This document shows positions 41,948 to 42,479 of a stretch of 64,000 nt of DNA, in pieces. Below the pieces are notes generated by a model. The model ran no database searches. It had not been told where the DNA came from and saw nothing but the letters and a program-made list of their open reading frames with translations. Every line of letters begins with the position of its first letter. The first letter of the stretch is position 1. Source of the DNA: the human T2T-CHM13v2.0 reference genome, Homo sapiens; NCBI GenBank assembly GCA_009914755.4, contig CP068257.2, positions 28,672,001 to 28,736,000 of the forward strand, read 5' to 3'. Both the position numbers and the translations under genes were made by a program.

Positions 41948-42274
41948 TTAGCAAGTTGATCGGTAGAAGCCAGATCCACAAGTTGGTCTGTAACAGGAAG
42001 ACTGGAATGTCCTAAAGAGAACATATGTTGGGTGGCAGAATCCAGATCCATAGCCCAGGGAAGGGAAGCCACAGCCTCCATAACCCAGGGATCTGACGCC
42101 ACTGGACCCACGGCCCACTGAGTAGCAGCTCCTAGATCCATAGCCCAGGGAGCGGCAGCTGCTGGATCCAAAGCCTAGAGACTCAGAGTAAGTCGACTGG
42201 CAGGGACTGCAGAGCACGGAGCTTCTGGGGCGGTAGCAGGAGGTCTGGCAGGGGCTGGACTCCACACAGGACAT
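41948..42274 (-). other. Out-of-frame KRTAP13-like C-terminal coding remnant (108 codons) directly downstream of the KRTAP23-1 stop
   Basis: The ORF translates to MSCVESSPCQTSCYRPRSSVLCSPCQSTYSESLGFGSSSCRSLGYGSRSCYSVGRGSSGVRSLGYGGCGFPSLGYGSGFCHPTYVLFRTFQSSCYRPTCGSGFYRSTC. This closely matches the C-terminal two thirds of KRTAP13-family proteins. It lies in a different frame from the KRTAP23-1 CDS. Confidence 0.6.
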
Positions 42275-42281
42275 CTGGCAG

Positions 42282-42479
42282 CTAGGGGTTTCCCAGCAAG
42301 TCTCCTGAAAGCCCTTGCAGAGAGAGGAACCCAGCTGGCAGGTGCTGGGAGATCAAAGGTTCAGTGCTGTAGACCAGGTTGCTGGGGTACGAGGAGCCAC
42401 CACGGGAGTAGCCTGAGTAGCACAGGTAGCCCTCACAGGAATGGGAGGAGAAGTTTCCACAGCAGCAGTTGTAGGACAT
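42282..42479 (-). CDS. KRTAP23-1: Keratin-associated protein 23-1, 65-aa CDS, a truncated KRTAP13-like N-terminus
   Basis: ATG at 42477-42479 (minus). The translation is MSYNCCCGNFSSHSCEGYLCYSGYSRGGSSYPSNLVYSTEPLISQHLPAGFLSLQGLSGDLLGNP* = 65 aa. The first ~40 aa match the KRTAP13 N-terminus (MSYNCCSGNFSSRSCG...YPSNLVYSTD), then the frame diverges. The ORF track's 117-aa ORF is the same frame extended upstream. Confidence 0.8.
   Translation of the reverse strand: MSYNCCCGNFSSHSCEGYLCYSGYSRGGSSYPSNLVYSTEPLISQHLPAGFLSLQGLSGDLLGNP

What the first reader, a model, noticed from the sequence alone, without database searches (positions are those of the whole stretch)
41948..42479. KRTAP23-1 is a freshly truncated KRTAP13 paralog with its lost C-terminus still readable out of frame
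The 65-aa KRTAP23-1 ORF matches the KRTAP13-family N-terminus for about 40 residues (MSYNCC.GNFSS.SC...YPSNLVYST). It then diverges into an unrelated tail ending at 42282. Eight nucleotides downstream, a 108-codon ORF in another frame encodes an almost textbook KRTAP13 C-terminus (…SSPCQTSCYRPRSSVLCSPCQSTYSESLGFGSSSCRSLGYGSRSCYSVG…SCYRPTCGSGFYRSTC). Reading the DNA in the ancestral frame shows a TGC-to-TGA change (…YSTDL*) plus a +1 insertion near 42355-42360. The event is therefore recent: the downstream part has accumulated no further stops. The open question is whether the 65-aa product works as a mini-KAP or whether this is an expressed pseudogene on its way out. Stop-codon readthrough or frameshifting could in principle give a longer product.
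Basis: partly seen in the sequence, partly recalled or inferred. Interest (0 to 1): 0.55.

Follow-up and report, generated by a model that had tools for sequence, protein, structure and literature searches.

The report
Ape-wide frameshifted KRTAP13-like gene relic
KRTAP23-1 is the broken remnant of a full-length KRTAP13-type hair protein gene that is still whole in Old World monkeys; the break is shared by all apes, so it is old rather than recent, and the gene has drifted without detectable selection since.

Summary
The 65-aa KRTAP23-1 ORF (42282-42479, minus strand) matches the KRTAP13/PMG family for 39 residues. The 108-codon ORF that starts 8 nt downstream matches the family's C-terminus (Pfam E=1e-34). 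Relative to the monkey orthologues and to KRTAP13-1/-2, the locus has an extra A (42360/42361) and a TGC-to-TGA change (42353-42355).

The word "freshly" is wrong. Chimpanzee, orangutan and gibbon carry both lesions. The syntenic genes of macaque and langur are intact (175 aa in macaque; the annotated langur model is 191 aa). The break therefore arose on the stem-ape branch, roughly 17-30 million years ago.

Since then the locus looks neutral:
- Remnant: S=7, N=22, omega about 1.
- 65-aa ORF: S=4, N=10.
- Divergence of the gene is at least that of its flanks.
- Chimpanzee has lost the start codon.
- Chimpanzee and gibbon each gained another stop in the remnant, and orangutan has a 1-bp deletion.
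- Human and chimpanzee have TGTAAA in place of the TATAAA box.

The human remnant staying stop-free is unremarkable (P about 0.5-0.65).

KRTAP23-1 as a frameshifted derivative of KRTAP13-2 is already tabulated by Guo et al. 2022. Low interest.

The parts
42562..42567 (-). TATA-box position; reads TGTAAA in human and chimpanzee
   Evidence: Upstream alignments. Orangutan, gibbon, macaque and langur have GGGTATAAA. Human and chimpanzee have GGGTGTAAA.
42511..42513 (-). Upstream ATG in the presumed 5'UTR. It opens a 4-codon uORF (ATG CAG CTC AGC TGA), out of frame with the main ATG. Found in human and chimpanzee only.
   Evidence: CAATGC in human and chimpanzee versus CAGTGC in orangutan, gibbon, macaque, langur and KRTAP13-1. 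Its position inside the transcript is inferred from the distance to the TATA box, not shown.
42363..42479 (-). Codons 1-39 of KRTAP23-1, still in the ancestral KRTAP13/PMG frame
   Evidence: Pfam PMG profile positions 1-40; alignment to KRTAP13-1/-2 and the monkey orthologues.
42360..42361 (-). Site of the +1 insertion (one of these two A's), inside codon 40
   Evidence: ACTGAACC in human, chimpanzee, orangutan and gibbon. ACTG-ACC in macaque, langur, KRTAP13-1 and KRTAP13-2.
42353..42355 (-). TGA in the ancestral frame (was TGC, Cys)
   Evidence: CTCTGCTCT changed to CTTTGATCT in all four apes; translation shows LNL*.
42282..42362 (-). Frameshifted tail (codons 40-65, EPLISQHLPAGFLSLQGLSGDLLGNP) plus the TAG stop
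   Evidence: It has no Pfam match beyond residue 41. It is the shifted-frame reading of DLCSPSTCQLGSSLCKGFQETCWETPS.
42282..42479 (-). Annotated 65-aa KRTAP23-1 ORF
   Evidence: It is 100% identical to NP_853655.1 / UniProt A1A580.
41948..42352 (-). Ancestral-frame remnant: 134 codons open in human, ending at the family's normal stop
   Evidence: Pfam PMG positions 79-180. Neutral substitution pattern S=7, N=22.
41948..42274 (-). The 108-codon ATG-initiated ORF inside the remnant. Its ATG is the only other ATG between the annotated start codon and 42272.
   Evidence: This ATG is ACG in chimpanzee, gibbon and KRTAP13-1/-2.
41719..41724 (-). AATAAA polyadenylation-like signal. If it is used, the remnant lies in the 3'UTR.
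   Evidence: pattern only. Use of the site is inferred.

Best explanation
KRTAP23-1 is the hominoid orthologue of a full-length KRTAP13-type (PMG family) high-sulfur hair matrix gene of about 175 aa. That gene sits between KRTAP27-1 and KRTAP13-2 and is still intact in Old World monkeys.

On the stem-ape lineage the gene acquired a 1-bp insertion in codon 40 and a TGC-to-TGA change two codons later. The order of the two events is unknown. Ribosomes starting at the original ATG now read 39 native residues and 26 out-of-frame residues, then stop. The remaining 134 ancestral codons became 3'UTR.

Since then the whole locus has evolved as neutral DNA in every ape lineage examined. Human merely happens not to have been hit by a further stop or indel in the remnant.

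Because KRTAP genes have a single exon, a premature stop should not trigger exon-junction-dependent mRNA decay. A transcript carrying the short ORF can therefore persist and be annotated as protein-coding. This last step is inference from general knowledge.

The 65-aa ORF is most likely a by-product of gene death, an expressed pseudogene, rather than a selected mini-KAP.
For: Shown:
1. Family identity of both halves and 87.8-88.8% DNA identity to KRTAP13-2/-1.
2. Orthology. Macaque L007 and langur L008 are collinear with window 52577-32534 over about 20 kb at 91-92% identity, with a single intact gene (175 aa in macaque; the langur model is 191 aa) at the KRTAP23-1 position. Four Macaca species have the 175-aa protein.
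3. Both lesions are shared by human, chimpanzee, orangutan and gibbon and absent from the monkeys and the paralogues.
4. Independent later lesions. Chimpanzee: start ATG>CTA, and TGC>TGA in the remnant. Gibbon: TGC>TGA. Orangutan: 1-bp deletion.
5. Parsimony counts on ape branches: remnant S=7, N=22 (omega 1.0-1.3); N-terminal codons S=1, N=7; tail in the new frame S=3, N=3. The whole 65-aa ORF gives S=4, N=10 against an expected N fraction of about 0.7.
6. Human-orangutan divergence is 5.3% in the gene versus 3.7% and 4.6% in the flanks.
7. The TATA box is mutated and an upstream ATG is gained in human and chimpanzee.
8. The frameshift relationship to KRTAP13-2 is already listed in PMC8872073, Table 1 row H16.
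Against: - The short ORF keeps almost the same length and the same stop in four ape lineages (65/65/63/64 codons).
- The tail is identical in human and orangutan, and all three nucleotide changes separating them are synonymous in the new frame.
- Tail omega is 0.4-0.5, though not significant (p=0.36-0.42).
- Guo et al. report that expression was detected for 78 of their 80 pairs and treat this as support for function.
- A preprint reports one non-synonymous KRTAP23-1 change with a selection signature in mountain gorillas. This could be hitch-hiking with neighbouring KRTAPs.
- Substitution counts are small, so weak constraint cannot be excluded.
- The monkey orthologues also give omega of about 1.15 (S=11, N=40), so omega near 1 is not by itself proof of non-function in this family.
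- I have no expression or proteomic data.
Confidence: 0.8

Rival explanations
1. Neofunctionalised mini-KAP. The frameshift created a new 65-aa protein with a Cys-rich KRTAP13 head and a novel Leu/Gly/Ser tail, and selection has kept it in apes. This is the 'functional innovation by frameshift after duplication' reading of Guo et al. 2022.
For: - ORF length and stop position are retained in human, orangutan and gibbon. The tail is identical in human and orangutan, with 3 synonymous and 0 non-synonymous differences in the new frame.
- It is annotated as protein-coding.
- Guo et al. list an expression-divergence entry for this pair in their Table 1.
Against: - Chimpanzee has no ATG (CTA) and has two non-synonymous tail changes. 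Gibbon has one.
- The whole ORF gives S=4, N=10, which is the neutral expectation. The N-terminal part gives S=1, N=7.
- TATAAA is changed to TGTAAA and an upstream ATG is gained in the human/chimpanzee lineage.
- Gene divergence is not lower than that of the flanks.
- Retention of a 65-codon ORF over a few percent divergence is expected by chance. The stop-creating fraction is 0.03-0.06 and only about 1-5 substitutions fell per lineage.
Confidence: 0.12
2. A longer or second product is made in human from the same mRNA. One route is a +1 ribosomal shift at the CCC-UAG-C stop of the 65-aa ORF, which would re-enter the ancestral frame exactly (P-S-C-Q-M-S-C...). The other is leaky scanning or reinitiation at the ATG at 42274, which is the only other ATG between the annotated start codon and 42272.
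For: - The human remnant is open for 134 codons.
- There is no other ATG between 42479 and 42272.
- CCC followed by a stop is a shift-prone context in other organisms (general knowledge, not tested here).
Against: - The remnant is not conserved as coding. Chimpanzee and gibbon have a TGA in that frame, orangutan has a 1-bp deletion, and the 42274 ATG is ACG in chimpanzee and gibbon.
- Remnant omega is 1.0-1.3.
- No stable RNA structure follows the TAG (MFE z = +0.75).
- The second ATG has a poor context (C at -3), whereas the first has A at -3.
- Reinitiation after a 65-codon ORF with a 7-nt spacer is expected to be inefficient (general knowledge).
Confidence: 0.03
3. One reading: a recent, essentially human-lineage truncation of a KRTAP13 paralogue.
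For: The human remnant has no additional stop or indel.
Against: Identical lesions occur in chimpanzee, orangutan and gibbon.
Confidence: 0.01

Closest known systems
KRTAP13-1 / KRTAP13-2 (human chr21q22.1 high-sulfur keratin-associated proteins, Pfam PMG PF05287)
   Same: - Same single-exon layout, same cluster and same strand as KRTAP13-2, which lies about 1.5 kb beyond the window end.
- 87.8-88.8% DNA identity over the whole former CDS.
- The frame-corrected protein is 80-81% identical to them, and the inferred catarrhine ancestor is 89.5% identical to KRTAP13-1.
   Different: - The reading frame is broken at codon 40, so only 39 native residues are translated.
- Lineage-specific substitutions removed conserved cysteines (RGC to KGF, SRSCQSS to SRTFQSS). 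These are shared with the monkey orthologues, so they predate the ape-monkey split and the frameshift.
Macaque 'keratin-associated protein 13-1-like' (XP_077853983.1 and Macaca relatives) and the Trachypithecus francoisi equivalent
   Same: Syntenic orthologues of KRTAP23-1, with about 20 kb of collinear flanks at 91-92% identity. They share the lineage signature K[GS]FQE..TPSC[QH]MSC and TYVLSR.FQSS.
   Different: - Intact full-length ORFs (175 aa in macaque).
- Langur has ATG>ATA at the canonical start, and its 191-aa model uses an upstream ATG.
- They also evolve fast: S=11, N=40.
Frameshift-derived duplicate genes catalogued by Guo, Zou, Sakamoto & Innan 2022 (PMC8872073), row H16 KRTAP13-2 to KRTAP23-1
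   Same: It is the same gene pair, with one frameshift of C-terminal type and 26 shifted residues in a 65-aa product versus 175 aa.
   Different: - That survey had no outgroup for this pair and gave no date.
- It did not note the second lesion (TGA), the intact monkey orthologue or the later decay in other apes.
- It leans towards functionality. My data lean towards neutral decay.
Unitary or lineage-specific pseudogenes of hair genes in hominoids (for example the human hair keratin pseudogene KRTHAP1; from memory, not examined here)
   Same: A hair structural gene that is intact in other primates is disabled in a hominoid lineage and may still be transcribed.
   Different: - Here the loss is ape-wide rather than human-specific.
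- The locus is still annotated as protein-coding.

Membership tests
KRTAP13 / PMG family (Pfam PF05287) | Sequence match to the PMG profile above the curated cut-off | tested here: met
   35.4 bits for the 65-aa ORF (cut-off 29) and 120.5 bits for the downstream ORF.
KRTAP13 / PMG family (Pfam PF05287) | One uninterrupted ORF of about 160-175 aa covering the whole profile | tested here: not met
   In human the profile is split. Positions 1-40 lie in frame A and positions 79-180 in frame B, and positions 41-78 are read out of frame. The feature is met in the macaque orthologue.
KRTAP13 / PMG family (Pfam PF05287) | Location in the chr21q22.1 KRTAP cluster next to other PMG genes | tested here: met
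   KRTAP26-1 and KRTAP27-1 lie in the window. A KRTAP13-2 contig overlaps the window end at 100% identity.
KRTAP13 / PMG family (Pfam PF05287) | High-sulfur composition (about 11% Cys for KRTAP13 in Khan et al. 2014, PMC4180150) | tested here: inconclusive
   The 65-aa product has 5 Cys (7.7%), all within the first 20 residues, and the shifted tail has none (sequence).
Pseudogene (disabled orthologue evolving neutrally) | Disabling lesion relative to an intact orthologue at the syntenic position | tested here: met
   A +1 insertion and a TGA relative to macaque and langur.
Pseudogene (disabled orthologue evolving neutrally) | No excess of synonymous over non-synonymous change; divergence equal to the flanks | tested here: met
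   Remnant S=7, N=22. 65-aa ORF S=4, N=10. Power is low.
Pseudogene (disabled orthologue evolving neutrally) | Independent further lesions in sister lineages | tested here: met
   Chimpanzee start loss and TGA, gibbon TGA, orangutan 1-bp deletion.
Pseudogene (disabled orthologue evolving neutrally) | No protein product | not testable with these tools
   Needs hair-follicle Ribo-seq or hair proteomics.
Frameshift-derived functional gene (Ohno / Guo et al. 2022) | Frameshift after duplication giving a new C-terminus | tested here: met
Frameshift-derived functional gene (Ohno / Guo et al. 2022) | Selective maintenance of the new reading frame | tested here: inconclusive
   Tail S=3, N=3, omega 0.4-0.5, p=0.36-0.42. 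Chimpanzee lacks a start codon.
Programmed recoding (readthrough or +1 frameshift) gene | Downstream frame conserved as coding across species | tested here: not met
   Stops in chimpanzee and gibbon and a deletion in orangutan. Remnant omega about 1.
Programmed recoding (readthrough or +1 frameshift) gene | Stimulatory RNA structure next to the recoding site | tested here: not met
   The 111 nt from the stop fold no better than shuffled sequence (z = +0.75).

The most novel reading that the evidence does not exclude
In human only, the still-open remnant is translated. This could happen by a +1 shift at the CCC-UAG-C stop, which would give a protein of about 175 aa with a 26-residue scrambled linker. 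It could also happen by initiation at the next ATG on the message (42274), which would give a 108-aa KRTAP13 C-terminal fragment. Either way, KRTAP23-1 would contribute a real, human-specific KAP-like polypeptide to hair.
Probability: 0.03. Interest if true: 0.5.

Novelty: already known. Interest (0 to 1): 0.15.

Why it matters
It matters little beyond annotation hygiene. KRTAP23-1 is carried in gene catalogues as a protein-coding member of its own KAP family. The comparative data indicate that it is the ape-specific wreck of a KRTAP13-type gene that monkeys still have.

This is useful in three ways:
- As a caution when KRTAP23-1 turns up in selection scans, interactomes or burden tests.
- As a small data point on hair-gene loss in hominoids.
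- As a correction to its listing as a probable case of functional innovation by frameshift.

The increment added here is the date (stem hominoid), the intact monkey orthologue, and the later independent decay. It does not open a new question.

Tried and rejected
1. Ensembl/UniRef short models from Old World monkeys. At first I took P0004 (Chlorocebus, 62 aa) and P0005 (Rhinopithecus, 52 aa) as evidence that the frameshift predates the ape-monkey split. I rejected this for three reasons. P0005 has a 10-residue gap exactly over the frameshift site and a KRTAP13-1-like head. P0004 lacks the five substitutions shared by the macaque and langur syntenic orthologues. No DNA is on record for P0004. 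DNA from the syntenic macaque and langur loci shows no insertion.

2. Literature on expression or protein evidence. 'KAP23.1' gave 0 papers, 'KAP23' gave mostly noise, and the Rogers 2002 JBC paper is not held. Khan et al. 2014 has no separate KRTAP23 row in the passages I retrieved.

3. P0127 / L011, a 116-aa 'relative' in the chimpanzee cluster. It is a chimeric contig of 604 nt at 0.77x coverage. It joins a KRTAP13-1-like 5'UTR, the KRTAP23-1 head and a KRTAP15-1-like 3' part that I recognised from memory. It is not a real locus.

4. A frameshift-stimulating RNA structure after the TAG. None was found.

5. K23-lineage orthologues outside catarrhines. I searched the 132 retrieved proteins with signature motifs, and only Old World monkey proteins matched. 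The platyrrhine 'KRTAP13-2' proteins have the KRTAP13-2 C-terminus instead. The age of the duplication is therefore left open. I ran no further search on it, because it does not affect the dating of the truncation.

Full report
**What is in the window.** The window is the centromeric part of the human chr21q22.1 keratin-associated-protein cluster. Three genes lie on the minus strand: KRTAP26-1 (13275-13907, 210 aa), KRTAP27-1 (30916-31539, 207 aa) and KRTAP23-1 (42282-42479, 65 aa). All three hit Pfam PMG, PF05287. The 65-aa ORF is 100% identical to NP_853655.1 / UniProt A1A580. A human-derived metagenome contig carrying KRTAP13-2 overlaps window 62613-64000 at 100% identity. This places KRTAP13-2 about 1.5 kb beyond the window end on the same strand.

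**Checking the observation.** The finding is accurate.
- Residues 1-41 of the 65-aa ORF match PMG profile positions 1-40 (E=1.5e-8, above the curated cut-off).
- The 108-aa ORF at 41948-42274 matches profile positions 79-180 (E=1.1e-34).
- Its ATG lies 8 nt after the last base of the TAG.
- Reading from 42364 in the other frame gives LNL*SPSTCQLGSSLCKGFQETCWETPSCQMSCVESS...GFYRSTC*. After a single TGA, this is 134 open codons ending at the family's normal stop.
- The former CDS is 87.8% identical at DNA level to KRTAP13-2 and 88.8% to KRTAP13-1.
- A frame-corrected protein is 80-81% identical to those proteins.

**Exact lesions.** I aligned the DNA of KRTAP23-1 from human, chimpanzee, orangutan and gibbon with the macaque and langur genes and with KRTAP13-1/-2. 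Two changes separate the apes from everything else.
- An extra A in ACTG[A]ACC (window 42360/42361, codon 40).
- CTCTGCTCT changed to CTTTGATCT. The C>A at 42353 converts the Cys codon that follows 'YSTDL' into TGA (42355-42353).

**Orthology and dating: the main correction.** A search with the frame-corrected protein returned a 175-aa macaque protein (P0008, 'KRTAP13-1-like') and a 191-aa langur protein (P0010). Both carry motifs otherwise unique to the KRTAP23-1 remnant: K[GS]FQE..TPSC[QH]MSC and TYVLSR.FQSS.
- Their loci (L007, L008) are collinear with window 52577-32534 over the full 20.5 kb at 91-92% identity. There is one gene, at the KRTAP23-1 position. They are the syntenic orthologues, and they are intact.
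- Four Macaca species have the 175-aa protein.
- Chimpanzee (L001), orangutan (L002) and gibbon (Nomascus, L009) all carry both lesions.
- The gene was therefore broken on the stem-hominoid branch. From general knowledge this falls after the Old World monkey split (about 25-30 Mya) and before the gibbon split (about 17-20 Mya). 'Freshly truncated' is not supported.

**What happened afterwards.**
- Chimpanzee: the start codon is CTA (the record is annotated 'partial'), there is a 3-bp deletion just upstream, and the remnant has an additional TGC>TGA.
- Gibbon: the same extra TGA in the remnant.
- Orangutan: a 1-bp deletion in the remnant.
- The ATG of the 108-codon ORF is ACG in chimpanzee and gibbon.
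- Human and chimpanzee share TATAAA>TGTAAA at the TATA-box position (42567-42562). They also share a new upstream ATG (42513-42511) opening a 4-codon uORF. Orangutan, gibbon and both monkeys keep the ancestral states.

**Selection tests.** I used Fitch parsimony on the tree (((human, chimpanzee), orangutan), gibbon), with the two monkeys and KRTAP13-1/-2 as outgroups. Counts on ape branches were as follows.

| Region | S | N | Result |
|---|---|---|---|
| Remnant, old frame | 7 | 22 | Expected N fraction 0.71-0.76; omega 1.0-1.3 |
| Codons 2-39 | 1 | 7 | - |
| Tail, new frame | 3 | 3 | omega 0.4-0.5, p=0.36-0.42 |
| Whole 65-aa ORF | 4 | 10 | The neutral ratio |

- Human-orangutan divergence is 5.3% in the gene against 3.7% (5' flank) and 4.6% (3' flank). 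Human-macaque divergence is 9.9% against 6.3% and 13.6%. No constraint is visible.
- The monkey branches give S=11, N=40 (omega about 1.15).
- Conserved cysteines had already been lost in the common ancestor of the ape and monkey copies (RGC to KGF, SRSC to SRTF). The gene may therefore have been under relaxed constraint before it broke. This is inference.

**Is the open human remnant surprising?** No. About 12 substitutions lie on the path from the ape ancestor to human in that frame. Only 3.5-5.6% of possible substitutions create a stop. P(no new stop) is therefore about 0.50-0.65. Three of four lineages did acquire a further lesion.

**Mechanism.**
- Shown: translation from the original ATG yields 39 native residues plus 26 shifted residues. 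The remainder of the old gene lies downstream of the stop.
- Inferred: the remnant is 3'UTR, since an AATAAA lies at 41724-41719.
- Inferred: because KRTAP genes are intronless, the premature stop should not trigger exon-junction-dependent decay. That would let a transcript persist and be annotated.
- Best reading: a possibly still transcribed pseudogene whose 65-aa ORF is an accident of the frameshift (confidence 0.8).

**Rival readings.**
- A selected mini-KAP is not excluded. The ORF length is kept and the tail is identical in human and orangutan. The chimpanzee start loss, the neutral S/N counts and the promoter changes argue against it.
- A longer product needs one of two routes. One is a +1 shift at CCC-UAG-C, which would re-enter the old frame exactly. 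The other is initiation at the ATG at 42274, the only other ATG between the annotated start codon and 42272.
- Against a longer product, the downstream frame is broken in the other apes, and no RNA structure follows the stop (z = +0.75).

**Comparison with what is known.** Guo et al. 2022 (PMC8872073, Table 1 row H16) already list KRTAP13-2 as the original copy and KRTAP23-1 as the derived copy. They record one C-terminal frameshift, with 26 of 65 residues shifted, against a 175-aa original. They had no outgroup for this pair. The core of the finding is therefore published. The additions here are the second lesion, the intact monkey orthologue, the stem-ape date and the evidence for neutral decay. 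I found no accessible paper on KRTAP23-1 protein detection.

**Unresolved.**
- The Chlorocebus model P0004 shows a shifted tail, but it lacks the substitutions shared by the macaque and langur orthologues, and no DNA is on record for it.
- Chimpanzee and gibbon share two identical remnant changes that human and orangutan lack. ACG is the KRTAP13 state, so gene conversion is possible there. The shared TGA looks like a parallel mutation.

**Verdict.** Novelty: already known. Interest is low.

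Noticed in passing
window 50385-50760 (-): A much older, heavily decayed KRTAP13-like pseudogene relic lies about 8 kb upstream of KRTAP23-1. It is 72-78% identical to the KRTAP13 CDS in two pieces, with several stops and frame changes (for example ...SCYTGNFFSCSLGELLVYSV*SCVSSYPSYLVHPTDLC... 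and ...CYRPMYRHGFYKLA*). It is also present in macaque (L007 1798-1935) and langur (L008 1831-1968).
   Followed up: partly
window 42562-42567 and 42511-42513 (-): There are two changes in the promoter / 5'UTR that only human and chimpanzee carry among the six species compared. TATAAA has become TGTAAA. A new upstream ATG opens a 4-codon uORF (MQLS*). All apes also have an 8-bp tandem duplication (CATCACTG) between the TATA box and the presumed start site.
   Followed up: partly
L001 2998-3003 (chimpanzee KRTAP23-1 start): Chimpanzee (Clint_PTRv2) has CTA instead of ATG at the start codon and a 3-bp deletion 11 nt upstream. The GenBank protein is therefore 'partial' and starts with L.
   Followed up: yes
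L008 10001-10576 (Trachypithecus francoisi): The langur orthologue has ATG>ATA at the canonical start. Its annotated 191-aa product starts at an upstream in-frame ATG, which macaque also has (ATGAGGGCATCTTCTCAG...) and which is ATC in apes.
   Followed up: partly
L011 (ENA ERZ724092 NODE_18335, 604 nt): A metagenome contig at 0.77x coverage is a chimera of three human KRTAP genes: a KRTAP13-1-like 5'UTR, the KRTAP23-1 head, and a 3' part that I recognised from memory as KRTAP15-1. Its 116-aa 'protein' (P0127) sits in the chimpanzee KRTAP23-1 cluster of the protein database.
   Followed up: yes
P0004, P0005, P0009 (UniRef/Ensembl monkey models): These monkey gene models look like human-guided artefacts. 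P0005 has a 10-residue gap over the frameshift site. P0009 (macaque, 178 aa) joins a KRTAP13-1-like body to the KRTAP23-lineage C-terminus (MFQSSDYRPTCGFGFYRSTC). P0004 shows a shifted tail but lacks the substitutions shared by the macaque and langur orthologues.
   Followed up: partly
human ORF positions 207 and 280 of the ATG-to-TAA alignment (about window 42273 and 42200): Chimpanzee and gibbon share two identical changes that human and orangutan lack: ATG>ACG and TGC>TGA. ACG is the KRTAP13-1/-2 state, so gene conversion is possible there. The TGA appears to be a parallel mutation.
   Followed up: no
window 13314-13784 (+): A 156-aa ORF lies antisense to KRTAP26-1. It is probably just a by-product of the skewed codon composition of the KAP gene and not a gene.
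   Followed up: no
window 33960-34382, 40049-40483, 51352-51717, 62168-63193: ORFs with Alu-like translations ([19 protein letters not shown]) and a 341-aa ORF resembling the C-terminal part of LINE-1 ORF2. The human-monkey alignment at the KRTAP23-1 locus breaks at about 40373-40642, next to one of these Alu-like ORFs.
   Followed up: no
window about 42720-42800 (-): A (GA)n microsatellite lies about 250-300 nt upstream of the KRTAP23-1 ATG. Its length varies among human, apes and monkeys.
   Followed up: no
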